Source of the DNA: an uncultured bacterium
GTDB lineage: Bacteria; Patescibacteriota; Minisyncoccia; UBA6257; 2-01-FULL-56-20
NCBI GenBank assembly: GCA_963844965.1
Contig: CAWJQC010000007.1
Coordinates: forward strand, 32,001 to 96,000
DNA length: 64,000 nucleotides
Reading direction: 5' to 3'
Below the pieces are notes generated by a model. That model did not search any database, was not told the origin of the DNA, and saw only the letters and a list, made by a program, of their open reading frames with translations. The number at the start of each line of letters is the position of its first letter. Positions within the stretch are counted from its first letter, which is position 1. Shown piece by piece: positions 8,861-59,730 of the stretch. The translations under genes were made by a program, and so were the position numbers.

Positions 8861-9421
8861 ATGGAAGAGCAAACAAAGAAATGCAGGGAGTGCAAGTCGG
8901 ACATTCCGGCTGGCGCCAAGCGATGTCCCAGCTGCCGAGCGGATCAAAGGAACTGGTTGATGCGCCATAAAGCCTTAACTGTCGTGGTGATATTTATAGC
9001 GCTCATTATCATAGCCATGGTTGCTGGTAGTAATAGCAATAACCCTAAACAGGTCGGCAATAACAGCCAGCCAGTCCCATCATCCCAAGAGCAGACGTTC
9101 AAGGTCGGCGATCACGTCCAGATGGGAAGCGATATCATAACGGTGAACAGCGCGGAGTTTTCGAGCGGTACAGAATTCGCAAAGCCAGCCGCTGGGAACA
9201 CCTGGTTAGACGTCAATCTGACGATACAAAACACGGACAACGCCCAGCAGTATATAACGACCATGGGACAGATGTTTGTTAAGGATTCCGACGGCAACAG
9301 TTACAACGTTTCGCCCACGGACAAAGAATTACAAAATCCATCGCTTGGCATGGACGGCCCGATTCTTGCCAACAGCAAAAAGACCGCTTGGGTAGGGTTT
9401 GTAAAGGATAGGTTTCTTTAG
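8861..9421 (+). CDS. Zinc-ribbon / single-TM / DUF4352-like extracellular domain protein, 3' end running into the IS3 terminus
   Basis: N-terminal CxxC..CxxC, TM helix, then a beta-rich domain. The last codons (..VKDRFL*) are encoded by the IS terminal repeat, so the native C-terminus is probably lost. Confidence 0.55.
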   Translation: MEEQTKKCRECKSDIPAGAKRCPSCRADQRNWLMRHKALTVVVIFIALIIIAMVAGSNSNNPKQVGNNSQPVPSSQEQTFKVGDHVQMGSDIITVNSAEFSSGTEFAKPAAGNTWLDVNLTIQNTDNAQQYITTMGQMFVKDSDGNSYNVSPTDKELQNPSLGMDGPILANSKKTAWVGFVKDRFL

Positions 9422-9456
9422 ACAGTGATTCGACGGCTTTTTGCCGTTTTTTTTCG

Positions 9457-10239
9457 TTAAGCCGCAATCTTCTCGGCAAACACGGACGGCGGCATCTTGA
9501 GGGCGGAGTGGATCCGCGTGTGGTTGTACTGCCACAAGGTGCTGTAGATCTCCGCCACGAGCTCGCCGAAGGTCCCGAACCGGTTGGGATCACCGAGGTC
9601 AATCTTGAACTTGTCATAGAACGATTCCTGGTAGCCGTTTTCCCATGGGGCACCGGGCCGCGACCGCGAGATCGTGATGCCACAGTCCCCCAGTGTATCG
9701 GTGAACGCTCGTGCCTTGTACTCGCTGCCGTTGTCCGAATGGAAGATGACCGGATGCGGATGGTGGAAAAGCGCGTTGGCCAGGGTCTGTATCGTGAGGG
9801 GCGATCCTTTCCGCAACGCCACATGGACGCCCATCAATCGTCTCGTGAAAAGATCGAGTATCGTGGACACGTACACTTTCTTGCCGCGATACAGGAACTC
9901 CGTGAAATCGGTTGCCCAGACGTGGTTCGCGTACGAGGGCATGATGGCAAGTAAGAGGTTCGGAAAGGCCCGCGATGCCTTTGATTTCCGGTATTTCCTG
10001 CCTCGCCTCCGGTACGGCCTTATGCCGAAGATTCGCATGACGCGCTGCGCTCGCGGACGGCTCACGCCCAGAGCTTGTCCCAAGCGCCGGGAACCGTATG
10101 CCGGATGGCGCTGCAATTCTTCTTCCATGCGGATCTTGAGCGCCCAATCTTTCTTGTCCTGCCGTGATACGTAGTAGAGCGATGCCCGCGAGACGCCCAT
10201 GGCCCGCGCCATGGCGGACTTGTTCCGCTTTTCCGTCAA
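9457..10239 (-). CDS. IS3-family transposase OrfB (DDE integrase core)
   Basis: 260 aa; ..WATDFTEF..HSDNGSEY..YNHTRIHSAL.. rve-type DDE motifs. Confidence 0.85.
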   Translation of the reverse strand: MTEKRNKSAMARAMGVSRASLYYVSRQDKKDWALKIRMEEELQRHPAYGSRRLGQALGVSRPRAQRVMRIFGIRPYRRRGRKYRKSKASRAFPNLLLAIMPSYANHVWATDFTEFLYRGKKVYVSTILDLFTRRLMGVHVALRKGSPLTIQTLANALFHHPHPVIFHSDNGSEYKARAFTDTLGDCGITISRSRPGAPWENGYQESFYDKFKIDLGDPNRFGTFGELVAEIYSTLWQYNHTRIHSALKMPPSVFAEKIAA

Positions 10240-10499
10240 TTCTTTTTTTGGGCCTGGGAGAGCTTCACGGTGAGCTCGCCCACCACTTCAAACAGCTCCC
10301 TGTTCTGCTTCTGGAGACGGCTGAACTCGCCCCAGGAAGGGACGCCCGATGCTCCTGCGCCTAGCCAATTGTAGATGGTGGACTCGTGCAAACCGTGGTC
10401 CTTCGCAGCCTGCGCTACGGGGACTCCTTCTTCCTTCACCCGGCGGAGGATGTCCGCCTTCACTTCCTTCGCAATCCGATGCCCTTTTTTGTTGCTCAT
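10236..10499 (-). CDS. IS3-family transposase OrfA (HTH)
   Basis: 87 aa; helix-turn-helix; ends QAQKKN* at the frameshift heptamer. Confidence 0.85.
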   Translation of the reverse strand: MSNKKGHRIAKEVKADILRRVKEEGVPVAQAAKDHGLHESTIYNWLGAGASGVPSWGEFSRLQKQNRELFEVVGELTVKLSQAQKKN

Positions 10500-10531
10500 G
10501 ACACAATGGTAGTTTGTTTCGACCTTTGTGT

Positions 10532-11794
10532 CTAAATTATCCTATCCGGGTCAATGGTTAAGTCGCAGAATGCCGGTTCCAATTCGACCGTATAGACCCG
10601 GCGCTTAAGTTGTTCACCTGCAATCAGCGTGCTGCCGCTGCCGCAAAAGCTGTCCAAGATAATGTCTCCCGGACGGCTGCACCTGCGGATCGCTTTTTCA
10701 TGGAGCGCTGGCGGCTTGGACGTAGCGTGCTGATATTCGTTGCCCGCGAGTCGCTTCACGAGCCAGATGTCAAGCAAATCCAGGATGTCGTCAATGAGCC
10801 TGTTGCCCGTGGAGAGTTCCTTGTTCTGGATCTCGTTGAGCGACTGGAGGCCCTTCGCGAGATACGGCTTGCCGCGGACGCCGTAGACGGCGGGTTCATA
10901 GCACTTCGAGAAAGCGACCTCGGGAGTGGGGTTCTGGCCGTTTTTAATCCAGAGGCAGACGCGCTTGTTTTCAAGGCCGAGTTCCGCGTAGAGTGTCTGC
11001 AGGAGCCAGATATAACGCTGGTCGCACCAATAAAAGACATGCATATCGTCTTTCGCGACGGCGAGGGCGTTTACGAGGCTCTTCCGGAGAAACTCTTTGT
11101 ACTCGTCGTCAGTCCGCGTGTCGTTGACGCTACCGCCGTAGTTGGCATGTCCGCCGACGCCCTTCGCATAATCCACGCCGCCCTTCAGGTTATAGACCGG
11201 ATCGGAATAAATGACGGATGCCTTCTCGCCGCCAAAAAGCTTTTTGAGGACGGCGGGGTCTGTTGAATCGCCGCAAGCTAATTTATGAGGGCCTAGCGAG
11301 AATATGTCGCCGAGCTTTGTTTTCGGTTTTTTGATCTTGGCGAGCTCGCGTTCGACATTGAACTCATCGTCCTGAACTTCCGCGATGTCGTCCCAGAGGT
11401 GCGACAGCTCTTCGTCTTTAAATCCGATTTCAAGCAATAGCTCGGTGTCGAAGGTGCGTAATAGCTCGTATGACCAGTCTCCGCGCACGGCATTTGAGGT
11501 GAGCAAGTATTGCTCAAACTCGTGTTTCGTCAATTTCCGGTTCGGCACGCGCACTTCTATTTCTTCGCTCCCTCGGCCAAGGAGCTGAAGGGCCTTCAAC
11601 CTTTGATGACCAGCTATGATCGTGCCGTCCGTGTCGATCGCGGGAAGTTCTACGACGTTGAATTTCGTCAGGCTCTTCTTAAGGGCCTCGAGCTGAGCCT
11701 CGCCGATGGTGCGGGGATTTTTGGAAAACGGGACGAGTGAGTTAATCGCTCTCTTCTCCGTGTGCCAGATTAGCGATATGTGTTTTCTAGCCAT
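10532..11794 (-). CDS. ParB-like nuclease domain fused to an N6-adenine/N4-cytosine DNA methyltransferase (beta-class, PF01555-like)
   Basis: 420 aa. N-terminal ParB/Srx-like region (..IIAGHQRLKA..). MTase motif IV variant SDPVYN. C-terminal motif I ILDSFCGSGSTLIAGEQLKRRVYTVELEP. The last 8 codons are encoded by the IS IRL. Confidence 0.7.
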   Translation of the reverse strand: MARKHISLIWHTEKRAINSLVPFSKNPRTIGEAQLEALKKSLTKFNVVELPAIDTDGTIIAGHQRLKALQLLGRGSEEIEVRVPNRKLTKHEFEQYLLTSNAVRGDWSYELLRTFDTELLLEIGFKDEELSHLWDDIAEVQDDEFNVERELAKIKKPKTKLGDIFSLGPHKLACGDSTDPAVLKKLFGGEKASVIYSDPVYNLKGGVDYAKGVGGHANYGGSVNDTRTDDEYKEFLRKSLVNALAVAKDDMHVFYWCDQRYIWLLQTLYAELGLENKRVCLWIKNGQNPTPEVAFSKCYEPAVYGVRGKPYLAKGLQSLNEIQNKELSTGNRLIDDILDLLDIWLVKRLAGNEYQHATSKPPALHEKAIRRCSRPGDIILDSFCGSGSTLIAGEQLKRRVYTVELEPAFCDLTIDPDRII

Positions 11795-23980: not shown

Positions 23981-25190
23981 ATGCTCTATCGTTACGTCGC
24001 GGCGGATAAGGGGGGCAGGGTTCACGAGTCGCAATTGGATGCCGACAACTTGAATCAGGTTCTCCAGTACTTGGCCGGGCACGAACTCCAACCAATCTCG
24101 GTTAAGCCCCTCGGAGAAGCGCATGCGACCGCGTGGCACTTTTTTGGCAAGAAGATTTCCACGACGGACAAGGTTTTTTTAACTAAATACTTGGCCCTGA
24201 TGCTGCGGGTGGGGACCGATTTGCTGTCGGCCATTAATATTCTGATCCAGGACTTTGATAAGCCGGCGGTGAGAAATTTTCTTCTGGAAGTAAGGGATAA
24301 TCTGACCCGCGGCCGCCAGTTTTACACCGCGTTTGAGGCGCACGAAGACGTTTTTTCCCCGGCTCTCGTCAATATGATAAGGGCGGCGGAGGCTTCCGGG
24401 AATCTCCAGCAGACCATGGAGGATTTGAGCGTCAGTTTGGGTCGTGACGCCGAGCTCGGTGGGCGTATAAAGTCGGCGCTTATCTATCCGATAATCCTGC
24501 TTTCACTTTCTTCCGTGATCATAGTTTTTTATGGTGACCTACGCGCTGCCCAAGGTTGCCAAGGTTTTCACGGATAGTGGCATAAAACCGCCGATTTTTT
24601 CGCGAATTGTGTTTACGGTCGGCCTCTTTGTGGGAGATCATATAATTGTGATTTGCATTTTGCTTGTAGGCACGATAGTGGGCGTCATTTACGCTTATCT
24701 CAAAACCGTTATCGGGAGGCGCGTGATTAATCGCGTGCTTTTCGGTTTGCCCCTCATTAAGAAGATTTACAGCGAACTCGCGATTCAGCGGCTTGCCTCC
24801 ACGATGGGTTCGCTTATGAAGGCCGGCCTGCCGATTACAGAAAGCATTAAAGTCGCCGCAAGGACTGTCGGCCTTGACGAATACCGCTTTCAGCTGGAGC
24901 GCGTTGCCGATGGAATCACCAAGGGGCTTACACTTGGGGAGGCGTTCAAACGCGAGGTTGTTTTTCCCAAGACGGTGGTCAATTTGATTGCCATATCGGA
25001 GAAAGCCGGTCACCTTGAAGAAGTTTTGGCGACGCTCGCGGATTTTTACGCGTCTAGCGTTGATAACGGGATAAAGGCCATTGTGTCCCTGCTCGAGCCG
25101 GTTCTCTTGCTGACCATGGCCCTGTTTGTGGGAATATTAGCGGTTGCGATTATCGTGCCGATTTATCAGCTGACAAGCAACATCAGTTAA
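23981..25190 (+). CDS. pilC: PilC/GspF-family platform protein, interrupted by a frameshift at a T6 run (24525-24530)
   Basis: Two overlapping ORFs (23981-24577, 24531-25190) each carry one GspF domain; joining them at the T6 run restores a normal ~400-aa PilC. Confidence 0.7.
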
Positions 25191-42599: not shown

Positions 42600-43838
42600 T
42601 TATTCATATCTCAGGGCCTCTATGGGATTGAGGCCGGCCGCGCGGCGGGCGGGATAATATCCGAAAACGATTCCCGTTAGCGCCGACACGCCTACGGCCA
42701 GGAAGACCGACCACCAAGAAACGCTCGTGGTAATGCTTGCGAATCTGGTTATCAGGAATGAAACTATCCAGCCGAGTATCACCCCCACAATGCCGCCGAC
42801 AAACGTGAGCATCACGGATTCCAGCAAAAACTGTATGCTTATGTCCCTTTTTTTCGCGCCAATTGCTTTGCGCAGCCCTATTTCCCTCGTCCTTTCGGTC
42901 ACGGTCGTGAGCATCATGTTCATGATCCCTATGCCGCCGACGATAAGTGAAATTCCGGCGATGGAAGCGAGAAGCATGGTGAACGTATTCGTAACGCTTG
43001 AGGCCGTGGCGACAATGTCCGATTGAGTTTGAACGGTGAAATCCGCTTGCGAAGAATCGGAAATGTTATGCCTGCCCAAAAGCAGATCGGTGATCTCGTT
43101 CTGCACTTGTGAAATTGAATTCTGGTCTTGCGCCTGGACGTCTACTTCGGAAACGTAGGACGTGCTTCCCAAAAGATAATGTTGGCCCGTTGTAAGCGGG
43201 ACATAGATGACGTTGTCCTGATTGCCGAATCCGGTGCCGCCTTTGGATACAGTGACGCCGACAACCTTGAAGTTAATGCTTTTTATCCTGATGGTATTTC
43301 CGATCGCCTCGTCCGGAGTAGCGGTGGCATTTACGCCAAAGAGGTCTTGCAGGACCGTAGGACCAATAACCGCAATCTTGTCGGATTTTGTCACGTCCGC
43401 ATCCGTGATAAAAGCGCCCTGATCGATTGCCACGTTGCGTACTTGTGTATACGCCGGGACAGTTCCCACAACGCTTGTGTTGGTGTTCGCACCCTTGTAG
43501 ATAACTTGGTATCTGCCGCTGATTTGGGAGCCGTCGCTTCCACGCCGCTCAGCCCTGCGATCGCGTCTGCGTCGTCCGGCGTCAAGGTTTGCGCGCTTCC
43601 TTGCCCTGCCCGCACACCGTAGCCCAAAGTTCTTTGTTGCCCCGGAGTTACCATTAGAAGATTTGATCCAATTGATTGGATTCGCGCGGTGATCGAATCC
43701 TTGCGCACCTTGGCCGATGGAAACCATGGCGATGACGGAGCCGATGCCGATTACGATGCCCAATATTGTGAGGCCCGACCGCACCTTGTTCACCGTTATG
43801 GCGGACGAGGCCTCGTGAAATAGTTCGGAGATGATCAT
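42600..43838 (-). CDS. MacB/FtsX-family ABC transporter permease, with a ~190-nt internal segment in the wrong frame
   Basis: N-terminal TM and 3 C-terminal TMs typical of MacB. Between ~43698 and ~43510 the MacB-like sequence (..DSITARIQSIGSNLLMVTPGQ..EATAPKSAAD..) is in the -1 frame (ORF 43391-43708), while the long ORF reads an Arg-rich nonsense stretch. Confidence 0.65.
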   Translation of the reverse strand: MIISELFHEASSAITVNKVRSGLTILGIVIGIGSVIAMVSIGQGAQGFDHRANPINWIKSSNGNSGATKNFGLRCAGRARKRANLDAGRRRRDRRAERRGSDGSQISGRYQVIYKGANTNTSVVGTVPAYTQVRNVAIDQGAFITDADVTKSDKIAVIGPTVLQDLFGVNATATPDEAIGNTIRIKSINFKVVGVTVSKGGTGFGNQDNVIYVPLTTGQHYLLGSTSYVSEVDVQAQDQNSISQVQNEITDLLLGRHNISDSSQADFTVQTQSDIVATASSVTNTFTMLLASIAGISLIVGGIGIMNMMLTTVTERTREIGLRKAIGAKKRDISIQFLLESVMLTFVGGIVGVILGWIVSFLITRFASITTSVSWWSVFLAVGVSALTGIVFGYYPARRAAGLNPIEALRYE

Positions 43839-44548
43839 TGATGGTTAACGTGAACAATGCGGCGGTCGTGACTTTTGCCGTCTGTGGCTATTTCGCCGTC
43901 GAGTATGTGAATTATGCGTTCGGCGTGTTCGGCGATGTATTTTTCGTGCGTGATGAGCACGATGGTGCGTCCTTCTTCGTGCAGGTTCTGGAATGTGTCA
44001 ATGACTATTTCGCCGGTTTTTGAATCAAGATTGCCGGTCGGTTCGTCAGCTAAGATAAGCGTCGGATTATTCACGAGCGCCCGGGCAATGGCTACTCTCT
44101 GCATTTGTCCTCCCGATAGCTGATTTGAATGGTGTTGCCACCATGCTTCGGGCAGGGCCGCACCTCTAAGTGCGCGCTTCGCCTCCTCCTCCCTTTTCTC
44201 TTTCGCCGCGCCGGCGTAAATGAGGGGCAGCATTACGTTGCGGAATACCGTAGCGCGGGGCAATAGATTGAATTGCTGGAATACGAAACCTATTTTTTCG
44301 TTGCGGATGTCGGCGAGCTCGTCTTCGGAGAACTTTGAAACGTCTTTTCCATCGAGAAGATATTCTCCGCTCGTCGGCGTATCAAGAGCTCCCAGGATAT
44401 GCATCAGGGTTGACTTGCCGGAACCGGAAGGTCCCATAATCGAAACAAATTCCCCGTCTTTTATGGTGAAAGAAATGTTTTTCAGCGCCACCGTTTCAAC
44501 ATCGTCGCCGATTTTATATATTTTCGTGATGTTGCGCAGTTCGATCAT
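43835..44548 (-). CDS. ABC transporter ATP-binding protein (MacB/LolD-type)
   Basis: GPSGSGKSTL, LSGGQMQRVAIARAL, ILADEPTGNLD. Confidence 0.9.
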   Translation of the reverse strand: MIELRNITKIYKIGDDVETVALKNISFTIKDGEFVSIMGPSGSGKSTLMHILGALDTPTSGEYLLDGKDVSKFSEDELADIRNEKIGFVFQQFNLLPRATVFRNVMLPLIYAGAAKEKREEEAKRALRGAALPEAWWQHHSNQLSGGQMQRVAIARALVNNPTLILADEPTGNLDSKTGEIVIDTFQNLHEEGRTIVLITHEKYIAEHAERIIHILDGEIATDGKSHDRRIVHVNHQ

Positions 44549-44580: not shown

Positions 44581-46278
44581 CTATGAGTATCCCGCCCCCT
44601 CCCCCAAGACCCGGAAGTCTGGTTCCCCTCCGCCCGTAGTAGCTTGCGAAGTGCCAGAAGTTATGGTTTGCGTAACGACGGCGTCTCCTTCGTTCAGGCC
44701 TGAAACTATTTCCGTCATCGTGTCGTTCGATAGGCCGACGGTTACCTCCTGTTGTTTCGGCTTACCGTCTGACCCTAGGACGCTCACATGCGAAGTTCCT
44801 TGTTTTGTCGTAACGGCAGAATTTGGCACAAGAAGCACGCCTGATTTTACGTTTGTGATAATGTTAACCGTGTCGCTCATGCTGGGTTTTACGTCCGAAG
44901 TGGAATTGTCCAGCACGATTTGCACGCCGTAGCTCACAACTCCCTGAGATACGGTTCCTACCGGATCAACCTCCGAAACTTTTCCAGTAAAGGTAACGTC
45001 CGGCAGTGCGTCAAGCGTTATTGTGGTCTCCTGCCCGACTTTTACGTTGACTATGTCGGTCTCGTTGAATGTCGCCTGCGCGAATTTCTGGTCGGAAACG
45101 ATTGTTGCGACGGCGCCGCTTGCCGTATCGCCGACTTTCACGCTGACCGAAGCAATGGTGCCGTCAAACGGTGCAACGATCGTGTAGTAACTCAAATCAT
45201 TTTGCAGGTCAACAAGATTTTGCTCCTCGGTTATAAGATTGTTATTAGCGATCTGAAGGCTTATTGGATTGTCGCCGTTGGGATTGCCGACCTGGAGTAG
45301 CGCGATGTTCTGCTTGTCGGCTGTAATCGTCTGCTTGTCTGTATCGATCGTGTTTTTCTGGGACAAGAGAGCGCTCAGGTCGTTATTCACCGTCGACAAA
45401 TAGTTCCGCGTATTTGTCTGCAGCGTATTTACCGCCGTCGGGAGGTAACGATTATACTGAGTCGCGAGATCGTTCGCCGCCCCAAGTAGATTCAACTCGT
45501 CCTGTAATGTTTGCGCAACGTCAGTCGCCATATCAATCGATTGTTCAAGTATGGTTTCAATCTGGTCGCCGCTCGAATTCCGACTTAATTGTTTATAGGC
45601 AATAACGCTCGGGTCATATTCTGCAGTCGCGGTCGCGTAGCTACTTTTTGCGCTGTCTGCAAGTGTTTCCATTGTTGATGTGGTTTTGTCGCTGAATAAG
45701 TTGATAAGTGTGTCTACGTTCCACTGGCTGGCCTTCGGGTTGATGTCTGTGCCATAGAGGACGTCTTGCATGCCGGTCATGACGTTTGGCAGGTCCAAGT
45801 AGGTGTTCGATAGCGTGTTGAACGCATCGTTATATTGGGTTTGCAAATTATCTTGATCGGTGGTGAGGGTATCAAGCGCTTTTTGGTAATCGATCGGGGC
45901 CTGAGCCGTACTTTGCTGGAGTTGGAGCTTTGCTGTTACGAGGGATTGCTTTGCGTTTGCAACTGCCTGTTGCGCATCGGTGTCATCCATCTTCATTATC
46001 GCCTGATTGGCTTTGACCTTGTCGCCCGCGCTTACCCCTATCCACGTTATCTCTCCGGCAACCTGCGCTTTTATGTCAATTTGGTACAAGGCCGCGATCT
46101 GCCCGCTGCCCGAAACAGAAACGACAAGCGTTCCTTTCTGGGCCTTAGTTGTGACGTATTGCAACTTAGTGGAAGTGCCACCTCTGATTGCGCCGTAGGC
46201 GTAGTAGGCGGCGATAATGATAACGATTGCTGCTATAACGAGAAATTTTTTATTTGTTAATATCTTTTTCATGTTCAA
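44581..46278 (-). CDS. Periplasmic adaptor / membrane fusion protein (HlyD/MacA-like) with a long coiled coil
   Basis: N-terminal TM, biotinyl/lipoyl-like hairpin, ~250-aa coiled coil, beta-barrel C-terminus. Confidence 0.7.
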   Translation of the reverse strand: MNMKKILTNKKFLVIAAIVIIIAAYYAYGAIRGGTSTKLQYVTTKAQKGTLVVSVSGSGQIAALYQIDIKAQVAGEITWIGVSAGDKVKANQAIMKMDDTDAQQAVANAKQSLVTAKLQLQQSTAQAPIDYQKALDTLTTDQDNLQTQYNDAFNTLSNTYLDLPNVMTGMQDVLYGTDINPKASQWNVDTLINLFSDKTTSTMETLADSAKSSYATATAEYDPSVIAYKQLSRNSSGDQIETILEQSIDMATDVAQTLQDELNLLGAANDLATQYNRYLPTAVNTLQTNTRNYLSTVNNDLSALLSQKNTIDTDKQTITADKQNIALLQVGNPNGDNPISLQIANNNLITEEQNLVDLQNDLSYYTIVAPFDGTIASVSVKVGDTASGAVATIVSDQKFAQATFNETDIVNVKVGQETTITLDALPDVTFTGKVSEVDPVGTVSQGVVSYGVQIVLDNSTSDVKPSMSDTVNIITNVKSGVLLVPNSAVTTKQGTSHVSVLGSDGKPKQQEVTVGLSNDTMTEIVSGLNEGDAVVTQTITSGTSQATTGGGEPDFRVLGEGAGYS

Positions 46279-46339: not shown

Positions 46340-46789
46340 CTATTTGGCCGCTTTCGTCCGGAGAGCCGATGACAACGACCGGGTCACCGGTTTTAAAATC
46401 AGCAATCTGGATTTCTTCACCGCCTTCACGCATGATTGTAGAAGGAAGGATGGTTGCGGTCCTCTCGATCCGTCTTGGCCGCTTATGGCTATGCTGGAAC
46501 TCGTTGTGTTTAGAACCGTGCCGAAAGCGCCGTGCGCATTTATGGGGCCAGGGTTTGGAGGAGTTCCTGGGGCGCCTATAAATCCTGGGCCTGCTGGAAT
46601 TCCTAATATGTTATGACGTTCTCCTCCGAAATTGCGGCCATAGTTCTCTCCCCAGGCGTACGAAAACCGCGCCTTGTTATAGCCAACCAAAATCCCTGCG
46701 CCGAAAGATATTAAAACTATAATAAGCAGGCCGACGCCGATGACGATTCTCTTGAAAAGTTTTGATTGGAGAAAATTATTGTAGTTCAT
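46340..46789 (-). CDS. Hypothetical membrane/secreted protein
   Basis: TM anchor, Gly/Pro-rich; possibly co-transcribed with the sigma/anti-sigma pair. Confidence 0.4.
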   Translation of the reverse strand: MNYNNFLQSKLFKRIVIGVGLLIIVLISFGAGILVGYNKARFSYAWGENYGRNFGGERHNILGIPAGPGFIGAPGTPPNPGPINAHGAFGTVLNTTSSSIAISGQDGSRGPQPSFLLQSCVKAVKKSRLLILKPVTRSLSSALRTKAAK

Positions 46790-47256: not shown

Positions 47257-47880
47257 TTAATCCTCGTTTTCCGGCGCTTTGGCGTAGCTGCGCAAAAGAT
47301 GGATGGCGCGCCAGTAATGGCTTTTGACTGTGTTCAGCGGTTTCTTTAATTTTTTGGCTATTTCCTTGAACGTTAGATATTCTTTGTTCCGCATCGTTAT
47401 TACCGCTTGGTAGTGTTCCGGCAAACTGTTGGCGGCCGCATTCACTTTCTCGGCGGCCATCTTAATGTCCAGTGTGGCGTCGGGCAGGGCAAGCGAATCG
47501 GCCACTTCAAGAATCGGATTTTCGTTTTCTTCTCTGGTCGCGAGCGAAGAGAACGGCAAGGCCCCGCGCTTCTTCAGCCAATCAAGCGCCGTGTTTTTGG
47601 CGATGGCGTAGAGCCACGGTTTGAATTGTTTTGTCCGGTCAAATTTTTTCAGATTGCGCCAGACCTTGATGAATGTTTCCTGCGCGATATCGGCGGCTTT
47701 GTCGGTGTCGCCGGTATAGCGCCGCGAAAAACCATAAATCAACGGTAGGTATCTTTTAATAAGAACCTCCAAAGCCGTTTCATCGCCTTTGCGCGATAAG
47801 AGAATAAGTTCTTCGTCTTTTAGATTTTCCAAATTATTCATGCCTACAGTGTCCATTTTAGCACAACCAAAAGAAATCAC
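47257..47880 (-). CDS. ECF-type sigma-70 factor
   Basis: Region 2 (..YLPLIYGFSRRY..ETFIKVWRNLKKFD) and region 4 HTH (LTFKEIAKKLKKPLNTVKSHYWRAIHLLR). Confidence 0.8.
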   Translation of the reverse strand: MISFGCAKMDTVGMNNLENLKDEELILLSRKGDETALEVLIKRYLPLIYGFSRRYTGDTDKAADIAQETFIKVWRNLKKFDRTKQFKPWLYAIAKNTALDWLKKRGALPFSSLATREENENPILEVADSLALPDATLDIKMAAEKVNAAANSLPEHYQAVITMRNKEYLTFKEIAKKLKKPLNTVKSHYWRAIHLLRSYAKAPENED

Positions 47881-48136: not shown

Positions 48137-48535
48137 CTAATTCCAGTTTAGGGCCGTTATGGTGAGTTGCAACACTGTCGCGAATAAGACCCAGAGGAGG
48201 TACGGAATATTTACGAGGGCGATCCAATTCGCGTAGGGATAGATCGCGGCGATTGTCCAGACAAGTGTAGCGAGTACGAGGAGAATGTCGATTGCCGCCA
48301 GGATATTATTTCGCAGGCCGAATTGGATCGGCGCGAAGGCAAGATTGGAAACGAGATTCAGGGCGAACGGCAGAGCCGTTATCTTTGGCAATTGGCCCTC
48401 TGCGATTTTATAGAATGTCGCGCCAAAAGAAACAGCGATAATCGCGTAGAGTACTGTCCAGACCGGCCCGAAGAGCCAGGCGGGCGGAGCCCACGACGGC
48501 TTCGTTAATGTTTGATACCAAGCGTAAGCGCTCAC
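48137..48535 (-). CDS. TspO/MBR tryptophan-rich sensory protein
   Basis: W..L.KPSWAPP..FGPVWTVLY signature; 5 TM. Confidence 0.75.
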   Translation of the reverse strand: MSAYAWYQTLTKPSWAPPAWLFGPVWTVLYAIIAVSFGATFYKIAEGQLPKITALPFALNLVSNLAFAPIQFGLRNNILAAIDILLVLATLVWTIAAIYPYANWIALVNIPYLLWVLFATVLQLTITALNWN

Positions 48536-48690: not shown

Positions 48691-51208
48691 ATGCGCAAAC
48701 AAGATGTTCTCGGGATAAGTTTGAGCGGGCTTTTTGGCGAATTGAGATCGTCCGAGAACGGTCTCACCGAAGAAGAAGCCGCCAAACGTTTTCGCGAGCA
48801 CGGTCCGAATATTCTCAAAAAAGAAGGCGTTAGCGCGCTCGGAGTTTTGCTTCGCCAATTCCAAAGCTCACTGATTTATCTTCTTGTCGCGGCGAGCGCG
48901 ATATCTTTTTGGATTAGGGATTATTCGGATGGGACGATTATCGCCGTTATTCTCCTCGTCAACGCCTCCCTGGGATTTTTTCAGGAATATAGATCGGAAA
49001 AGATCGTTGAGAAACTTTCAAAGTTTATCAGCCACCAAGTTCGCCTCAGGAGAAGCGGGCAGATTGTGTTATTGGACGAATCACGGATTGTTGTCGGAGA
49101 CGTGCTTGTCGTTCGCGAAGGCGATATTGTTCCGGCGGACATGCGGCTGTTTGAAGCCGACAATCTGGAAGTGAACGAGTCGCAGCTTACGGGCGAGTCG
49201 GTGCCGGTCGTTAAGCGTGTCTCAAATGATATCGCCAAAAATCCCGACTGCCTCGTTTTCACTGGCAGCGTCATTGAGAAAGGTGAGGGCGTTGGGATTG
49301 TCTATGCGATCGGCAACGACACGGAATTGGGAACTATCGCCAGGTTGTCAACGGAAACAAAGAAAGAAACGCAGTATGAGAAATCACTGCGGTCATTCAG
49401 TTCTTCTTTGATGAAAGTTGTTCTCCTCGGCTTGGCCCTGGTTTTCGCGCTCAAGTTGATTTTGAACGGAGGATTTTCAAACGCAGCGGGTCTTTTGCTT
49501 TTTATCATAGCCATGGCCGTTGCCGTGGTGCCCGAAGTTCTGCCGGTTATCGCCACGGTTACCTTGTCAAACGGAGCATTGAAACTCGCCAAAAGGCATG
49601 TGGTAGTTAAACGCCTGTCGTCGCTGGAGGATCTCGGCAATGTGGATTTGCTGTGCGCCGATAAGACAGGGACCATCACCGAAAACAGAATGGTCATAAA
49701 CAAAATTGTTTCCGCCGATGATAAATTGTTTCAGGAGCTTGCCTACGCCGCCATTACGCCCCTGAAAGGCAGAAAGAGAAGGATGCAGAATTCGTATGAC
49801 GACGCGTTCAACCGATATGTTTCCGACGCCGTGAGGAAAGAGGCGGTGAATTTCAGAGATCTTGAAAGAACTTCCTTTTGACCCGTATGACAGGAGAAGC
49901 CGGGTGGTGCTTGAGGATGCGGCGCACGGAAAACACTTTCTGCTTTCAATCGGCGCCCCCGAAGCGGTCTTTGAAATTAGCGGGAGCGAGCAAAAAGCGA
50001 AATATCTGGAAGACATCGCCGCGGAAGGCAGAAAAGGCCTGCATCATCTGGCGATAGCGTACAAGGAAGTATCATATGCTAACGATTTTGATATTTTGAA
50101 AAACGAACGCGATTTGAAATTCCTCGGATATGTGAGTTTAGAAGATCCGTTGCGGCCTACGGCCAAGAATACCGTTTACCTTGCCGAAAAACTTGGCATA
50201 AAAATCAAAATCCTGACGGGAGACAGCAAAGAGGTCGCCGAGTATGTCGGAAAGCAAATAGGGTTGGTGAAAGAGGGAGATAAAGAGGAAGATAAGGTGT
50301 ATCTCGGCGGCGAACTTGAGAAAATGTCGGAGGACGAATTCAGGACAGCCGTTCGGAGATGCAATGTGTTCGCCAGAGTTTCTCCGACCGATAAATACAA
50401 TATTATAAGGGCTCTCAAGGAAACTAATGTCGTCGGCTACGAGGGAGACGGCATCAATGACGCTCCGGCGCTGAAACTGGCGGACGTGGCGATCGCGGTC
50501 AACTCGGCCACGGACATCGCCAAGGAAAATTCCGACATTGTTCTTCTCAACAAAAGCCTTGAGGTCGTTATCAACGGCATAAAATACGGCAGGTCCATAT
50601 TCGTGAATATCAATAAGTATATTAAATACACCATGGTAAATAATTTTGGCACCTTTATTGCACTGGCCGTTTTATACTTGCTGTCTGCCTATTTACCAAT
50701 GCTCCCGATTCAAATACTTTTGACGAATGTGATTACAGACATTCCTCTCGTCACAATTTCGTCCGACACGGTTGAAGATGTAGAAGTAGTGCGGCCGGAA
50801 AAACACAATACGAAAGAACTGGTGTTCATCTCGCTTATTCTGGGAATTCCAACGGCTTTTTTTGAACTTCTCTACTTCTTGATTATCCGCTCACATCCCC
50901 GAGAGTTCGTGGCAACAGGCCTTTACGTCTTCCTTACCTTCTTGGCATTAATTGTTTTCTATGCGATAAGAAACAAAGAAAATTTCTGGAAAACAAAGCA
51001 GCCATCCCGTCTTTTGAACGTCTCTTTTGTGCTCGCTTTTGTCTTCTCGCTCGCGATCATTTATATGCCCCAGTTTCAGGCGTGGTTTTCCTTCGTGCCG
51101 TTGCCCGCGGCGTCGGTGATTGTCATTCTAATTCTGATGGTGCTCTACCTTTTCGCGGTGGATTTCGTCAAGGTGAGGTATTACAAGTTTTCTGCGGGGG
51201 AGAAATGA
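48691..51208 (+). CDS. mgtA: Mg2+-type P-type ATPase (MgtA-like), split by a frameshift near 49862-49870
   Basis: 48691-49881 carries TGES and CADKTGTIT; 49862-51208 carries GDGINDAPAL and the C-terminal TMs; the two frames join at ..NFRDL|KELPFDP. Confidence 0.75.
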
Positions 51209-51862: not shown

Positions 51863-51968
51863 GCAAAAGGGAAGTCACAGTTTGTGCACCGATTTCCTTA
51901 CACAAAATTAAAAAATATTGCTTGCTATGACAACAGGAATCGAACCTAAAATTGGAAGCCCCCGATAT

Positions 51969-52023
51969 CCAGAGGCTATTATAAGTGTCCTTTCAGATAG
52001 AAATTATATGGAAAATCTGCATT
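51969..52023 (+). repeat. 55-bp direct repeat, copy A
   Basis: ccagaggctattataagtgtcctttcagatagaaattatatggaaaatctgcatt; ~85% identical to 54485-54539. Confidence 0.6.
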
Positions 52024-52296
52024 TTAAATTCTGTTTCATAAAGGCGTTACAACGCTCAGAAACGGCACATTAACGGCGGCAAGAAATTATTATAACAAAG
52101 GACCTCTTCTTGCGCGGCATAGTAGACGACGCTAGAGCCGTCATCCAGCGATAAAATGAGTATATTTACATCCCAAATTTGAGGGCAGAAGCAATGAGGG
52201 TATAATTTCACCTACTGCATTATTCACTATTTCTCTTGCCATAATATCCTGCGCTTGACACCTGTTTTTAATTTTTGGAAGGGATATAATTATATT

Positions 52297-52577: not shown

Positions 52578-54263
52578 ATGAATAAAAAAACTTTAAGCGT
52601 ATTGATACTAATTTCTTCAGTAATGATCTCCGGTGTTATTGTCGGTTCGGCGATGGCGCAGACCCCGGCCGATCAAAGTACGACAACTTTATCCGCAAGT
52701 ATCACGTATCCGATTCCGGAATTGGGCAATTGTCAAAGTCAGGCGGATTGTAAAACCTTTTGCGACGATACCAAGAATACCGATGCCTGTTTGGCTTTTG
52801 CCCAAGCCAATAATTTAATGAGTTCCGACCAAGTGGCTGCCGCTAAAAAATTTGCGGATAGCGGAATGGTTGGTCCGGGCGGATGCAAGGGAGAAACCGA
52901 ATGCGACACGTATTGCGGCGATACGAGCCACATAGAAGAGTGTATTACGTTTGCGCAAAATAACGGATTGATGTCCGAACAAAAGCTACAGGAATCGCAA
53001 AAGGTTTTGGCAGCCATTAAAACAGGTGTCAAACCTTTGGGCTGCAATAGTGAGCAGGAATGTGAAGCATATTGTGCGACCGCTGAACATATGGAGGAGT
53101 GCATAAATTTCGGCACCGAGGCAGGAATATTGCCGGCTCAGGATCAGGAGAATGCGCGCAAAGTTTTGACCGCTATAAAAAATGGTGCCGTGCCTCCGTG
53201 CGAAGGTGATGCGTGTCCGGCTTTTTGCAGCAAACCGCAGAACGCGGATGCTTGCGAGAAGTTCCGTATCGAGGCTGGAATTCCGTCACGCTCCGAAATG
53301 ATAGTAGTTCAGGCAATACTTACTCTTATAGCAAAAGGAACTACTATGTCTACTTGCAGCGGTGCGCAAGGATGCCAGGATTATTGTTCTCAAGATGCCC
53401 ATGCTGAAGAATGCGCTAAATTTGCCGAGGATAATGGGGCGATTACGTCTTCAGAGGCAGAAGCAGCTATAGGCGGAGAAGCAGCGCCCGAAGGACCGGG
53501 TGGATGTAAGACTAAAGACGAGTGCGATGCTTATTGCAATAATCCGGATAATTCCGAAACTTGCTTTAATTATGCCAAGGATAACGGACTGATTTCCTCG
53601 GAAGACCTAAAGAAAATAGAAGATAGCCAGCAGCAAATGAAAGATTCTTTTAATAATATGCCCGCAGAGATATTAACCTGTTTAACTACTTCTTTAGGCG
53701 CAGACACGGTTGAAAAATTAAAAAGCGGAAACGCTATACCAGATCAGAAAACGGCCGAACAAATGAAGACTTGTTTTGACCAATACACTCCAACCGCTCC
53801 AACCGCTCCGGCTGGTCCGGGGAGTCAAGCCGGACAAAATCAGGGCGGACAAGGACAGGGTGGCGGAGGAGGTGGCAACGGTGGTGGTAGCGGCGGAGGT
53901 AGTGGCGGGGGAGGACAGGGCCAAGGTAACCAACCAACCCAACCTACTCAACCGAGCCAACCTATGCAACCAACCCAACCTACTCAACCGGGCCAGCCGA
54001 CTCAGCCCAGCCAACCATCACAGCTACTACCTCAGACGGGCCCCGGTGGATGCAAAACCATCGAAGAATGTAAGACGTATTGCCAGGCGCATCCGGAAGC
54101 TAAAACAGAGTGTCAGCAATTTAAGCAGAGTCAACAGGGACAATCTGGACAGAATCAGCCGACGCAAGGCCCGAATAATCAACAACCCAGTCAACCCAGC
54201 CAGCCGACTCCACCGCAACCTCCGACTCAGCCTACTCCACCAAGTCAACCAAGCCCGCCATAA
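52578..54263 (+). CDS. Secreted protein with ~9 tandem 4-Cys repeats (C-x5-C-x3-C-x8-C) plus Gly-rich and PTQ-rich tail
   Basis: Signal peptide; repeats such as GPGGCKGETECDTYCGDTSHIEECITFAQNNGLMS; GGQGQGGGGGG and QPTQPTQPSQP low-complexity tail. Confidence 0.6.
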   Translation: MNKKTLSVLILISSVMISGVIVGSAMAQTPADQSTTTLSASITYPIPELGNCQSQADCKTFCDDTKNTDACLAFAQANNLMSSDQVAAAKKFADSGMVGPGGCKGETECDTYCGDTSHIEECITFAQNNGLMSEQKLQESQKVLAAIKTGVKPLGCNSEQECEAYCATAEHMEECINFGTEAGILPAQDQENARKVLTAIKNGAVPPCEGDACPAFCSKPQNADACEKFRIEAGIPSRSEMIVVQAILTLIAKGTTMSTCSGAQGCQDYCSQDAHAEECAKFAEDNGAITSSEAEAAIGGEAAPEGPGGCKTKDECDAYCNNPDNSETCFNYAKDNGLISSEDLKKIEDSQQQMKDSFNNMPAEILTCLTTSLGADTVEKLKSGNAIPDQKTAEQMKTCFDQYTPTAPTAPAGPGSQAGQNQGGQGQGGGGGGNGGGSGGGSGGGGQGQGNQPTQPTQPSQPMQPTQPTQPGQPTQPSQPSQLLPQTGPGGCKTIEECKTYCQAHPEAKTECQQFKQSQQGQSGQNQPTQGPNNQQPSQPSQPTPPQPPTQPTPPSQPSPP

Positions 54264-54422
54264 CAACCAACTCCACCACAACTGCCGACTCCGCCAAGCA
54301 GTTTCTTGCGACAAACGCAGAAGTTTTTAGGGAGCATCTTGGATGTATTCACGAGGTAAGGATTTTTGCAATAAAATAGATTGTTATTCCTCCCGGCCCT
54401 CTCCTTCGGTTCGAATCCAGAC

Positions 54423-54484: not shown

Positions 54485-54539
54485 TCCAGAAGCTATTATA
54501 AGTGTCTTATCGGATAGGAATTATATGGAAAATCTGTAT
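54485..54539 (+). repeat. 55-bp direct repeat, copy B
   Basis: ccagaagctattataagtgtcttatcggataggaattatatggaaaatctgtatt. Confidence 0.6.
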
Positions 54540-54644
54540 TCCAAGTTTTACATTTTGAGGGAGATGGAGCGGTTGGAAATATCTAAATGTAAAGGATAGG
54601 TTTCTTTAGACAGTGATTCGACGGCTTTTTGCCGTTTTTTTTCG

Positions 54645-55427
54645 TTAAGCCGCAATCTTCTCGGCAAACACGGACGGCGGCATCTTGAGGGCGGAGTGGA
54701 TCCGCGTGTGGTTGTACTGCCACAAGGTGCTGTAGATCTCCGCCACGAGCTCGCCGAAGGTCCCGAACCGGTTGGGATCACCGAGGTCAATCTTGAACTT
54801 GTCATAGAACGATTCCTGGTAGCCGTTTTCCCATGGGGCACCGGGCCGCGACCGCGAGATCGTGATGCCACAGTCCCCCAGTGTATCGGTGAACGCTCGT
54901 GCCTTGTACTCGCTGCCGTTGTCCGAATGGAAGATGACCGGATGCGGATGGTGGAAAAGCGCGTTGGCCAGGGTCTGTATCGTGAGGGGCGATCCTTTCC
55001 GCAACGCCACATGGACGCCCATCAATCGTCTCGTGAAAAGATCGAGTATCGTGGACACGTACACTTTCTTGCCGCGATACAGGAACTCCGTGAAATCGGT
55101 TGCCCAGACGTGGTTCGCGTACGAGGGCATGATGGCAAGTAAGAGGTTCGGAAAGGCCCGCGATGCCTTTGATTTCCGGTATTTCCTGCCTCGCCTCCGG
55201 TACGGCCTTATGCCGAAGATTCGCATGACGCGCTGCGCTCGCGGACGGCTCACGCCCAGAGCTTGTCCCAAGCGCCGGGAACCGTATGCCGGATGGCGCT
55301 GCAATTCTTCTTCCATGCGGATCTTGAGCGCCCAATCTTTCTTGTCCTGCCGTGATACGTAGTAGAGCGATGCCCGCGAGACGCCCATGGCCCGCGCCAT
55401 GGCGGACTTGTTCCGCTTTTCCGTCAA
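54645..55427 (-). CDS. IS3 transposase OrfB
   Basis: Identical to the other copies. Confidence 0.85.
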   Translation of the reverse strand: MTEKRNKSAMARAMGVSRASLYYVSRQDKKDWALKIRMEEELQRHPAYGSRRLGQALGVSRPRAQRVMRIFGIRPYRRRGRKYRKSKASRAFPNLLLAIMPSYANHVWATDFTEFLYRGKKVYVSTILDLFTRRLMGVHVALRKGSPLTIQTLANALFHHPHPVIFHSDNGSEYKARAFTDTLGDCGITISRSRPGAPWENGYQESFYDKFKIDLGDPNRFGTFGELVAEIYSTLWQYNHTRIHSALKMPPSVFAEKIAA

Positions 55428-55687
55428 TTCTTTTTTTGGGCCTGGGAGAGCTTCACGGTGAGCTCGCCCACCACTTCAAACAGCTCCCTGTTCTGCTTCT
55501 GGAGACGGCTGAACTCGCCCCAGGAAGGGACGCCCGATGCTCCTGCGCCTAGCCAATTGTAGATGGTGGACTCGTGCAAACCGTGGTCCTTCGCAGCCTG
55601 CGCTACGGGGACTCCTTCTTCCTTCACCCGGCGGAGGATGTCCGCCTTCACTTCCTTCGCAATCCGATGCCCTTTTTTGTTGCTCAT
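55424..55687 (-). CDS. IS3 transposase OrfA
   Basis: Identical to the other copies. Confidence 0.85.
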   Translation of the reverse strand: MSNKKGHRIAKEVKADILRRVKEEGVPVAQAAKDHGLHESTIYNWLGAGASGVPSWGEFSRLQKQNRELFEVVGELTVKLSQAQKKN

Positions 55688-55741
55688 GACACAATGGTAG
55701 TTTGTTTCGACCTTTGTGTCTAAATTATCCTATCCGGGTCA

Positions 55742-55773
55742 ACCTTTGTGTCTAAATTATCCTATCCGGGTCA
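55742..55773 (-). repeat. Tandem duplicate of the terminal 32 bp (IRL) of the IS3 element
   Basis: acctttgtgtctaaattatcctatccgggtca repeats 55710-55741 exactly. Confidence 0.7.
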
Positions 55774-55776: not shown

Positions 55777-55951
55777 GATGGTTGATTTAAGTAAGCTCTA
55801 TCCCGATATTGATATTGCCGAAACGCTCTCGAACCTAACGGGAAAATGGATCAAGACAATCAAGGGCAATAAGGTTGAATTTTCTGATGGTAGCGAGATA
55901 GATACAAGCGATATGGATTACAAACTTATTAAGCCATTGATTTGGTGGTAA
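55777..55951 (+). CDS. Small hypothetical protein
   Basis: ~58 aa from MVDLSKLYPDIDIAE..; N-terminus resembles the start of the downstream helicase (MSKLY..). Confidence 0.3.
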
Positions 55952-58650: not shown

Positions 58651-58687
58651 TTTAGACACAAAGGTCGAAACAAACTACCATTGTGTC

Positions 58688-58951
58688 ATGAGCAACAAAA
58701 AAGGGCATCGGATTGCGAAGGAAGTGAAGGCGGACATCCTCCGCCGGGTGAAGGAAGAAGGAGTCCCCGTAGCGCAGGCTGCGAAGGACCACGGTTTGCA
58801 CGAGTCCACCATCTACAATTGGCTAGGCGCAGGAGCATCGGGCGTCCCTTCCTGGGGCGAGTTCAGCCGTCTCCAGAAGCAGAACAGGGAGCTGTTTGAA
58901 GTGGTGGGCGAGCTCACCGTGAAGCTCTCCCAGGCCCAAAAAAAGAATTGA
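58688..58951 (+). CDS. IS3 transposase OrfA
   Basis: Identical to the other copies. Confidence 0.85.
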   Translation: MSNKKGHRIAKEVKADILRRVKEEGVPVAQAAKDHGLHESTIYNWLGAGASGVPSWGEFSRLQKQNRELFEVVGELTVKLSQAQKKN

Positions 58952-59730
58952 CGGAAAAGCGGAACAAGTCCGCCATGGCGCGGGCCATGGGCGTCTCGCG
59001 GGCATCGCTCTACTACGTATCACGGCAGGACAAGAAAGATTGGGCGCTCAAGATCCGCATGGAAGAAGAATTGCAGCGCCATCCGGCATACGGTTCCCGG
59101 CGCTTGGGACAAGCTCTGGGCGTGAGCCGTCCGCGAGCGCAGCGCGTCATGCGAATCTTCGGCATAAGGCCGTACCGGAGGCGAGGCAGGAAATACCGGA
59201 AATCAAAGGCATCGCGGGCCTTTCCGAACCTCTTACTTGCCATCATGCCCTCGTACGCGAACCACGTCTGGGCAACCGATTTCACGGAGTTCCTGTATCG
59301 CGGCAAGAAAGTGTACGTGTCCACGATACTCGATCTTTTCACGAGACGATTGATGGGCGTCCATGTGGCGTTGCGGAAAGGATCGCCCCTCACGATACAG
59401 ACCCTGGCCAACGCGCTTTTCCACCATCCGCATCCGGTCATCTTCCATTCGGACAACGGCAGCGAGTACAAGGCACGAGCGTTCACCGATACACTGGGGG
59501 ACTGTGGCATCACGATCTCGCGGTCGCGGCCCGGTGCCCCATGGGAAAACGGCTACCAGGAATCGTTCTATGACAAGTTCAAGATTGACCTCGGTGATCC
59601 CAACCGGTTCGGGACCTTCGGCGAGCTCGTGGCGGAGATCTACAGCACCTTGTGGCAGTACAACCACACGCGGATCCACTCCGCCCTCAAGATGCCGCCG
59701 TCCGTGTTTGCCGAGAAGATTGCGGCTTAA
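58948..59730 (+). CDS. IS3 transposase OrfB
   Basis: Identical to the other copies. Confidence 0.85.
   Translation: MTEKRNKSAMARAMGVSRASLYYVSRQDKKDWALKIRMEEELQRHPAYGSRRLGQALGVSRPRAQRVMRIFGIRPYRRRGRKYRKSKASRAFPNLLLAIMPSYANHVWATDFTEFLYRGKKVYVSTILDLFTRRLMGVHVALRKGSPLTIQTLANALFHHPHPVIFHSDNGSEYKARAFTDTLGDCGITISRSRPGAPWENGYQESFYDKFKIDLGDPNRFGTFGELVAEIYSTLWQYNHTRIHSALKMPPSVFAEKIAA

What the first reader, a model, noticed from the sequence alone, without database searches (positions are those of the whole stretch)
43500..43710. MacB-like permease contains two compensating frameshifts ~190 nt apart
The conserved periplasmic-domain sequence (..DSITARIQSIGSNLLMVTPGQ..PKSAAD) is in the -1 frame between ~43698 and ~43510. 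The long ORF stays open through this stretch but reads Arg-rich nonsense (..RCAGRARKRANLDAGRRRRDRRAERRGSDG..). This implies a +1 and a -1 indel that cancel. Either there are two errors, or the gene was frameshifted and then restored by a second-site indel.
Basis: seen in the sequence. Interest (0 to 1): 0.5.

Follow-up and report, generated by a model that had tools for sequence, protein, structure and literature searches.

The report
Two cancelling indels, probably assembly errors
A membrane-transporter gene really does carry a one-base insertion and a one-base deletion 171 bases apart that scramble 57 amino acids, but the same stretch of genome has three more broken genes and nearly all the breaks sit next to the motif GATC, so this is most likely a long-read sequencing artefact, not biology.

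Summary
In the MacB-type permease gene 42600-43838 (-), ORF residues 47-103 are read out of frame. The conserved sequence lies in the neighbouring frame. DNA alignment with orthologues places a +1 base at 43699-43702 and a -1 base at 43526-43531.

The shifted segment still shows purifying selection in the old frame, so the indels are either very recent or not real. It replaces the first beta-alpha-beta motif of the Porter subdomain, and AlphaFold2 predicts no structure for it.

The evidence favours artefact:
- The window holds three further frameshifts in conserved genes: pilC, a P-type ATPase and a small gene in the same operon.
- The contig runs through four 100% identical 1.15-kb IS copies, which implies a long-read assembly.
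- Four of the five indels lie within 10 nt of a GATC (Monte-Carlo P about 3e-5 to 1e-4), as expected for single-molecule reads near a methylated motif.
- The shifted frame is naturally open in this gene, so the unbroken ORF needs no selection to explain it.

No second assembly of this species was found, so a real, recent compensated frameshift cannot be excluded (about 15%). Interest is low.

The parts
42600..43838 (-). MacB-type (Type VII ABC) permease gene, 412-aa ORF, open throughout
   Evidence: Pfam MacB_PCD plus FtsX. NCBIfam best hit is MacB, below its cutoff.
43699..43702 (-). Site 1: one extra base (an A or a G in CAAGGAT). Shifts reading from the ancestral frame into the -1 frame.
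   Evidence: DNA alignment with L081, L084 and L087. GATC at 43691-43694, 5-8 nt away.
43530..43700 (-). 57 codons (ORF residues 47-103) translated out of frame as Arg-rich sequence
   Evidence: AF2 pLDDT <50 and no secondary structure at residues 43-105. The orthologue has a helix to residue 56, strand 60-65, helix 87-94 and strand 99-114.
43526..43531 (-). Site 2: one missing base, either GGC^TCC or CCCC->CCC. Restores the ancestral frame.
   Evidence: Nearest GATC is 28-35 nt away.
43391..43708 (-). Alternative-frame ORF that holds the conserved periplasmic-domain sequence
   Evidence: On its own it matches MacB_PCD profile positions 28-92.
43835..44548 (-). ABC ATPase partner, intact
   Evidence: Pfam ABC_tran. 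85-87% identical to orthologues in a single HSP. No internal drop in identity.
44581..46278 (-). Membrane-fusion (HlyD/YknX-like) adaptor, intact except for a doubtful G-rich tail
46340..46789 (-). Small operon gene with an uncompensated -1 indel at 46466-46470 (GACGG^ATCGAG). The conserved C-terminal 50 aa are in another frame.
   Evidence: tblastn of orthologue proteins switches frame at 46469. Translations. The indel touches GATC at 46467-46470.
47257..47880 (-). ECF-type sigma factor heading the syntenic operon
   Evidence: Pfam Sigma70_r2/r4. Synteny in L081 and L084.
23981..25190 (+). pilC (two T2SSF domains) split into two ORFs by a +1 indel in the T6 run at 24525-24530
   Evidence: GATC at 24517-24520.
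48691..51208 (+). P-type ATPase split into two ORFs by a +1 indel within 49850-49861
   Evidence: GATC at 49858-49861.
9400..10553 (-). One of four 100% identical IS3-like copies. The others are at 13774-14927 (+), 54587-55748 (-) and 58627-59788 (+). Used here as evidence of a long-read assembly.
   Evidence: Pfam HTH_Tnp_1 plus rve.

Best explanation
The gene is an ordinary MacB-type permease of a Patescibacteria (Paceibacterota-like) MAG. The two cancelling indels are most likely consensus errors of a long-read, probably Nanopore, assembly.

What is shown: the two indels exist in the deposited sequence; the ancestral frame is the conserved one; the window contains three more frameshifting indels in conserved genes; four of the five indels lie within 10 nt of GATC.

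What is inferred: the contig comes from single-molecule long reads; GATC is methylated in this organism and disturbs base calling nearby; the true gene is uninterrupted. The pair looks 'compensating' only because a +1 and a -1 error fell 171 nt apart in a gene whose -1 frame has no stop codon before codon 187.
For: (1) The window holds other frameshifts: pilC at a T6 run, a P-type ATPase, and a small gene in the same operon. That makes 5 indels in 64 kb.

(2) Four of the 5 indels have their whole uncertainty interval within 10 nt of a GATC. Only 7.7% of window positions do. Monte-Carlo P=3e-5, or 1e-4 with a 5-nt criterion. None of the other 15 palindromic tetramers shows this. Base modification at GATC is a documented source of Nanopore read and assembly errors (PMC11610603). 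Residual indels that cause frameshifts are typical of Nanopore MAGs (PMC9262707).

(3) The contig passes through four 100% identical 1154-1162-bp IS copies. Short-read assemblers do not resolve such repeats.

(4) Frame-B pN/pS in the segment is 0.21-0.32 against orthologues, the same as among the orthologues themselves (0.12-0.30). Differences are concentrated at frame-B third positions.

(5) The -1 frame is open to codon 187 in this gene and is open in 2 of 4 orthologues, so the intact ORF needs no selection to explain it.

(6) The scrambled residues replace the first Porter beta-alpha-beta motif (5LIL residues ~314-366; PMC5985334). AF2 predicts them disordered and loses the partner strands at 231-236 and 267-271. 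A functional product is therefore unlikely, which removes the selective reason for a real compensation.

(7) The ABC ATPase and the MFP partner genes are intact.
Against: No reads and no second assembly of this species were available, so the artefact is not demonstrated.

Site 2 is not near a GATC (28-35 nt away), and neither macB site is a long homopolymer. About 140 homopolymers of 6 nt or more in the window sit in undisturbed ORFs, so this is not a crude assembly.

Published methylation-linked Nanopore assembly errors are mainly substitutions, not indels.

If the 5 indels were spread uniformly over 64 kb, some pair of opposite sign within 171 nt would occur with probability only about 3% (my estimate). 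This is offset by the fact that the finding was selected for being odd.

Three of the five indels hit one operon, and the window is IS-rich. Both also fit real gene decay.

The sequencing platform is inferred, not known.
Confidence: 0.7

Rival explanations
1. Both indels are real. A frameshift in the permease gene was rescued by a nearby second-site indel of opposite sign (a classic intragenic suppressor). This gives a MacB variant with 57 scrambled, Arg-rich residues in the periplasmic domain.
For: The ORF is open and full length, with perfectly conserved flanks. The partner genes are intact. Under a uniform error model two cancelling indels 171 nt apart are improbable. Site 1 creates a second copy of 'CAAGG', which occurs 10 nt upstream, a context in which real templated slippage could occur.
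Against: The old frame keeps the full signature of purifying selection. The replaced segment is the first Porter motif, which connects directly to the stalk helices and is regarded as intrinsic to mechanotransmission. AF2 predicts loss of structure there. The open -1 frame is a property of the gene, not evidence of selection. Site 1 shares the GATC proximity of the other indels.
Confidence: 0.15
2. The operon, and other accessory genes of this IS-rich genome, are really decaying. The macB indels are two independent pseudogenising mutations, or one real mutation plus one error, that happen to cancel.
For: Three indels lie in one operon (macB twice, plus the small gene at 46469), and a neighbouring ATPase is broken. 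The window has a very high mobile-element load: four IS3-like copies, another rve integrase, an IS200-like transposase and a DGR. The essential genes HisRS, FtsA, FtsZ, RNR, signal peptidase and PilB are intact.
Against: No mechanism explains why real mutations should lie within 10 nt of GATC. There are no stop codons, larger deletions or excess non-synonymous change in macB. The cancelling pair would again be a coincidence.
Confidence: 0.12
3. Programmed recoding: the ribosome shifts +1 and then -1 (or bypasses) to make the conserved protein from the sequence as deposited.
For: None beyond the fact that the conserved sequence is in the other frame.
Against: All orthologues encode the segment in one continuous frame. 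There is no slippery X XXY YYZ heptamer at either site. Two coordinated shifts in one gene would be needed.
Confidence: 0.01

Closest known systems
MacB of the MacAB-TolC pump (Type VII ABC superfamily; structures 5LIL, 5GKO, 5NIK) and the Gram-positive MacAB-like / YknXYZ systems (5XU1)
   Same: It has an FtsX permease domain and a MacB periplasmic core domain between TM1 and TM2, with four TM helices. The operon includes a separate ABC ATPase and a HlyD/YknX-type adaptor.
   Different: The NBD is a separate gene, not fused as in E. coli MacB. As deposited, the first Porter beta-alpha-beta motif is replaced by out-of-frame sequence. The host is a Patescibacteria MAG, and the substrate is unknown.
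Frameshift errors in long-read (Nanopore) metagenome-assembled genomes, including errors around methylated motifs such as GATC
   Same: There are several 1-nt indels in conserved genes of one contig, one of them in a homopolymer and four within 10 nt of GATC. The contig spans identical repeats (PMC9262707, PMC11610603).
   Different: The platform and methylation status of this record are not known to me. Published methylation-linked assembly errors are mostly substitutions. One of the two macB indels is not near a GATC.
Intragenic frameshift suppression (compensating +1/-1 mutations, as in the classic phage T4 rII experiments; recalled from general knowledge)
   Same: Two indels of opposite sign a short distance apart leave the downstream frame intact.
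   Different: In the classic cases the scrambled stretch lies in a tolerant region and the double mutant is selected for function. Here the stretch is a conserved structural motif, and there is no sign of evolution in the new frame.

Membership tests
MacB-type (Type VII ABC) permease | FtsX C-terminal permease domain (PF02687) | tested here: met
   82.6 bits, residues 292-405.
MacB-type (Type VII ABC) permease | MacB periplasmic core domain (PF12704) between TM1 and TM2 | tested here: met
   127.2 bits as deposited, 163.9 bits after frame repair.
MacB-type (Type VII ABC) permease | [quoted passage not shown] | tested here: not met
   As deposited, residues 47-103 (equivalent to 5LIL ~314-366) are out of frame. 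AF2 gives pLDDT <50 and no strands there.
MacB-type (Type VII ABC) permease | Operon partners: ABC ATPase and membrane-fusion adaptor | tested here: met
   ABC_tran at 43835-44548 and HlyD-type adaptor at 44581-46278. Same order in L081 and L084.
MacB-type (Type VII ABC) permease | Export activity or substrate | not testable with these tools
   No experimental data.
Long-read consensus indel artefact | Assembly made from long single-molecule reads | tested here: inconclusive
   Inferred from four 100% identical 1.15-kb IS copies inside one gap-free contig and a 331,718-bp contig. The platform is not on record here.
Long-read consensus indel artefact | Other frameshifts in conserved genes of the same contig | tested here: met
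   pilC, a P-type ATPase and a small operon gene.
Long-read consensus indel artefact | Errors tied to homopolymers or modified-base motifs | tested here: met
   One indel in a T6 run. Four of five within 10 nt of GATC, P=3e-5. Methylation itself was not tested.
Long-read consensus indel artefact | Indels not supported by the majority of reads or by short reads | not testable with these tools
   No reads available. No independent assembly of the species found.
Genuine compensated frameshift allele | Two indels of opposite sign with the ORF kept open | tested here: met
Genuine compensated frameshift allele | Evidence of evolution or selection in the new frame, or presence in independent genomes | tested here: not met
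   The old frame keeps pN/pS 0.21-0.32 with third-position bias. All nine close orthologues are unshifted. The only protein with the scrambled segment is the window's own.
Programmed ribosomal frameshifting | Slippery site, and conservation of the shift among orthologues | tested here: not met
   Orthologues are in one frame. No heptameric slippery motif at either site.

The most novel reading that the evidence does not exclude
The indels are real. Either this lineage carries a recently rescued MacB allele whose first Porter motif has been replaced by 57 Arg-rich out-of-frame residues, or, more broadly, this IS-laden Patescibacteria genome accumulates 1-nt indels preferentially next to GATC sites through some GATC-directed nicking and repair process.
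Probability: 0.1. Interest if true: 0.45.

Novelty: not a real feature. Interest (0 to 1): 0.12.

Why it matters
If the indels are artefacts, as I think, the finding matters only for quality control. The deposited protein (P0006) is a mistranslated MacB permease that has already entered protein databases. The same contig also miscalls pilC, a P-type ATPase and a small operon gene. The clustering of indels next to GATC gives a cheap, read-free flag for methylation-linked long-read errors in MAGs. If the indels were real, this would be a natural example of intragenic frameshift suppression inside a conserved structural motif of a Type VII ABC transporter. That would be of moderate interest to people studying protein tolerance and CPR genome decay.

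Tried and rejected
1. Independent copies of the species.
- The exact-protein look-ups found nothing.
- All window proteins tested are singletons on one 331,718-bp contig.
- A degenerate DNA pattern for the frame-B peptide against JGI metagenomes returned only loci 76-77% identical in DNA.
- The N-terminal 169 aa of the repaired protein found nothing above 69% identity.

2. Two 54-aa Logan proteins share a cluster with the window's RNR. Their contigs have no DNA similarity to the window, so this was a dead end.

3. A self-trained codon-usage frame scan was too weak. The macB segment scored 10.8 and ranked ninth. Its top 'hits' were IS overlaps, neighbouring genes and a low-complexity Q/P-rich protein (alt frame 53776-54330), which I rejected as a frameshift.

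4. The TspO gene (48137-48535) lacks the first ~21 profile positions, but no upstream frame encodes a TM helix. I did not count it as an indel.

5. The MFP C-terminal tail (44581-44640) may hide another indel in G-runs. The similarity is low-complexity only, so I did not count it.

6. The specificity of the Type II methyltransferase at 10532-11794 could not be determined. GATC methylation therefore remains an inference.

7. Openness of the shifted frame as evidence of selection was rejected. The -1 frame is open to codon 187 in the repaired gene and open in 2 of 4 orthologues.

Full report
**What is in the sequence.** The ORF 42600-43838 (-) encodes 412 aa with Pfam MacB_PCD and FtsX domains. 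It overlaps by 4 nt the stop of an ABC ATPase gene (43835-44548). Upstream of that lie a HlyD/YknX-type membrane-fusion gene (44581-46278), two small genes and an ECF sigma factor. Relatives show the same order.

ORF residues 47-103 read 'GFDHRANPINW...RRRRDRRAERRGSDG'. The neighbouring frame (ORF 43391-43708) reads 'DSITARIQSIGSNLLMVTPGQQ...GVEATA'. Joining the frames raises the MacB_PCD score from 127.2 to 163.9 bits. The joined protein aligns through the segment to MacB structures 5GKO and 5LIL.

The nine closest database proteins (83-84% identity, all 412 aa) carry the frame-B sequence in frame. The only protein with the scrambled stretch, P0006, is 412/412 identical to the window's ORF and occurs on a single 331,718-bp contig.

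A DNA alignment with three orthologues places one extra base in 'GCGCAAGGATTC' (43699-43702) and one missing base in 'GACGGC^TCCCAAATC' (43526-43531). The shifted stretch is 171 nt, 57 codons.

**How old is it, and would the product work?** In frame B, the segment's pN/pS between the window and four orthologues is 0.21-0.32. Among the orthologues themselves it is 0.12-0.30. Differences are concentrated at frame-B third positions, 24-30 of 39-50. The lineage has thus spent essentially all of its divergence translating frame B, so the indels are very recent or not real.

The segment corresponds to 5LIL residues ~314-366. That is most of the first of the two beta-alpha-beta motifs (306-346) that build the Porter subdomain, plus the start of the Sabre subdomain. 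The Porter joins both stalk helices and is considered intrinsic to mechanotransmission (PMC5985334).

I ran AlphaFold2 with the same family alignment on two proteins:
- Orthologue P0003 shows a helix to residue 56, strand 60-65, helix 87-94 and strand 99-114.
- The deposited window protein has pLDDT <50 and no secondary structure over residues 43-105. It also loses the partner strands at 231-236 and 267-271.

This prediction is only indicative, but it gives no reason to expect a functional product.

The unbroken ORF is not evidence of selection. In the repaired gene the -1 frame has no stop before codon 187. The same frame is open across the segment in 2 of 4 orthologues.

**The rest of the window.** Three more conserved genes are frameshifted.
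- pilC is split into two ORFs, each with one T2SSF domain. The break is in a T6 run at 24525-24530, inside the continuous motif '...SSVIIVF|FMVTYALPKV...'.
- A P-type ATPase is split between DKTGT and the 'ILKELPFD' motif, with the indel within 49850-49861.
- In the macB operon, the small gene 46340-46789 (-) has its conserved C-terminal 50 residues in another frame from 46469 onward, at 'GACGG^ATCGAG'.

Genes whose domains could be checked are intact: PilB, HisRS, FtsA, FtsZ, RmuC, signal peptidase, class II RNR, the ABC ATPase and the MFP.

Four 1154-1162-bp IS3-like elements in the window are 100% identical. A gap-free contig running through them implies long reads. This is an inference. 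Long contigs of near genome size are also common among the related Patescibacteria entries from the same sources.

**The GATC pattern.** Four of the five indels lie next to a GATC:

| Indel | Distance to nearest GATC (nt) |
|---|---|
| macB site 1 | 5-8 |
| small gene (46469) | 0-1 |
| pilC | 5-10 |
| P-type ATPase | 0-8 |
| macB site 2 | 28-35 |

Only 4.6% of window positions lie within 5 nt of a GATC, and 7.7% within 10 nt. Placing intervals of the same widths at random gives P=1e-4 with a minimum-distance criterion of 5 nt. With the stricter criterion that the whole interval lies within 10 nt, P=3e-5. None of the other 15 palindromic tetramers shows the effect. The motif was noticed post hoc, but the result survives a 16-fold correction.

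I know of no mutational process that would place real 1-nt indels a few bases from intact GATC sites. A modified base in GATC that disturbs single-molecule base calling over the neighbouring few bases is a documented source of Nanopore read and assembly errors (PMC11610603). Residual frameshifting indels are the characteristic defect of Nanopore MAGs at modest coverage (PMC9262707).

There are caveats:
- Published methylation-linked assembly errors are mainly substitutions.
- About 140 homopolymers of 6 nt or more in the window are undisturbed.
- The specificity of the methyltransferase in the window could not be determined.
- macB site 2 is not explained by GATC.

**Weighing the explanations.** The artefact reading (about 0.7) explains the following:
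- the other broken genes;
- the GATC association;
- the untouched selection signature in frame B;
- the intact partner genes;
- the implausible product.

Its weak point is the coincidence of two opposite indels 171 nt apart, roughly 3% for five uniformly placed indels by my estimate. The finding was picked because it looked odd, and consensus errors tend to cluster.

A real, recently rescued allele (about 0.15) fits the open ORF. It requires tolerance of a scrambled Porter motif and leaves the GATC pattern unexplained.

Real decay of an accessory operon in an IS-rich genome, or one real plus one erroneous indel (about 0.12), fits three hits in one operon. It also does not explain GATC.

Programmed recoding is excluded by the orthologues and by the lack of slippery sites.

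**Limits.** No reads and no second assembly of this species could be found. The verdict therefore rests on internal evidence. The decisive test is a read pileup at the five sites together with a methylation call for GATC.

**Comparison and novelty.** The gene is an ordinary member of the MacB/Type VII ABC permease family, with a separate ATPase and a YknX-like adaptor as in Gram-positive MacAB-like systems. As deposited it fails only the intact-Porter criterion. The 'double frameshift' is best filed as not a real feature. The practical outcomes are a mis-translated database protein and a read-free warning sign for assembly quality: indels clustered next to GATC.

Noticed in passing
window 231-6737: RT 3202-4278 (-); template repeat about 4571-4681; variable repeats 281-391, 4937-5047, 5905-6015: This is a diversity-generating retroelement. 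It has a reverse transcriptase (Pfam RVT_1) and a ~111-nt template repeat. Three paralogous target genes (265-1137, 4921-5799, 5889-6737) have 3' ends that differ from the template only where the template has A.
   Followed up: partly
window 9400-10553 (-), 13774-14927 (+), 54587-55748 (-), 58627-59788 (+): Four 100% identical IS3-like elements are present. Each has an 87-aa HTH orfA and a 260-aa rve orfB, with an A7 run at the orfA/orfB junction. They form two inverted pairs. One pair brackets a Type II-like DNA methyltransferase (10532-11794). The other brackets a Type III restriction (Res) helicase-nuclease (55942-58650). The arrangement looks like composite transposons.
   Followed up: partly
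window 23981-25190 (+), break at 24525-24530: pilC, the type IV pilus platform protein with two T2SSF domains, is split by a +1 indel in a T6 run. The pilB gene (22128-23843) and the pilin genes are intact.
   Followed up: partly
window 48691-51208 (+), break within 49850-49861: A P-type cation ATPase is split into an N-terminal ORF (through DKTGT) and a C-terminal ORF by a +1 indel at or next to a GATC.
   Followed up: partly
window 46340-46789 (-), break at 46466-46470: A small conserved gene of the sigma-factor/MacB operon has its last ~50 conserved residues in another frame. One base is missing right beside a GATC.
   Followed up: partly
window-wide; GATC at 43691-43694, 46467-46470, 24517-24520, 49858-49861: Four of the five frameshifting indels found lie within 10 nt of a GATC (P about 3e-5 to 1e-4). 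No other palindromic tetramer shows this.
   Followed up: yes
window 14503-16129: More mobile elements follow an IS3-like copy directly. One is a second, different rve-integrase ORF (14503-15675), whose reading frame runs back into the IS copy. The other is an IS200-like Y1 transposase (15692-16129).
   Followed up: no
window 18567-21888 (+): A 536-aa ORF joins a dCache sensor domain (residues 111-283) in frame to a prepilin (N_methyl motif at 344-368) with no start or stop between them. Two further paralogous pilin genes follow (repeats at 19579, 20341, 21254). It is either a real fusion or a lost stop/start.
   Followed up: no
window 48137-48535 (-): The TspO/MBR gene matches only profile positions 22-143 of 145. 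No upstream frame encodes the missing first TM helix.
   Followed up: partly
window 44581-44640 (-): The C-terminal tail of the membrane-fusion protein differs from orthologues ('...GGGGGPPL*'). A similar Gly-rich ending appears in another frame among G5 runs. This may be a further indel, but the evidence is low-complexity only.
   Followed up: partly
window 51968-52030 and 54485-54547: A 63-nt direct repeat (86% identity) flanks a lower-GC stretch. That stretch encodes a 561-aa Q/P/G-rich, Cys-motif protein (52578-54263) with no family match.
   Followed up: no
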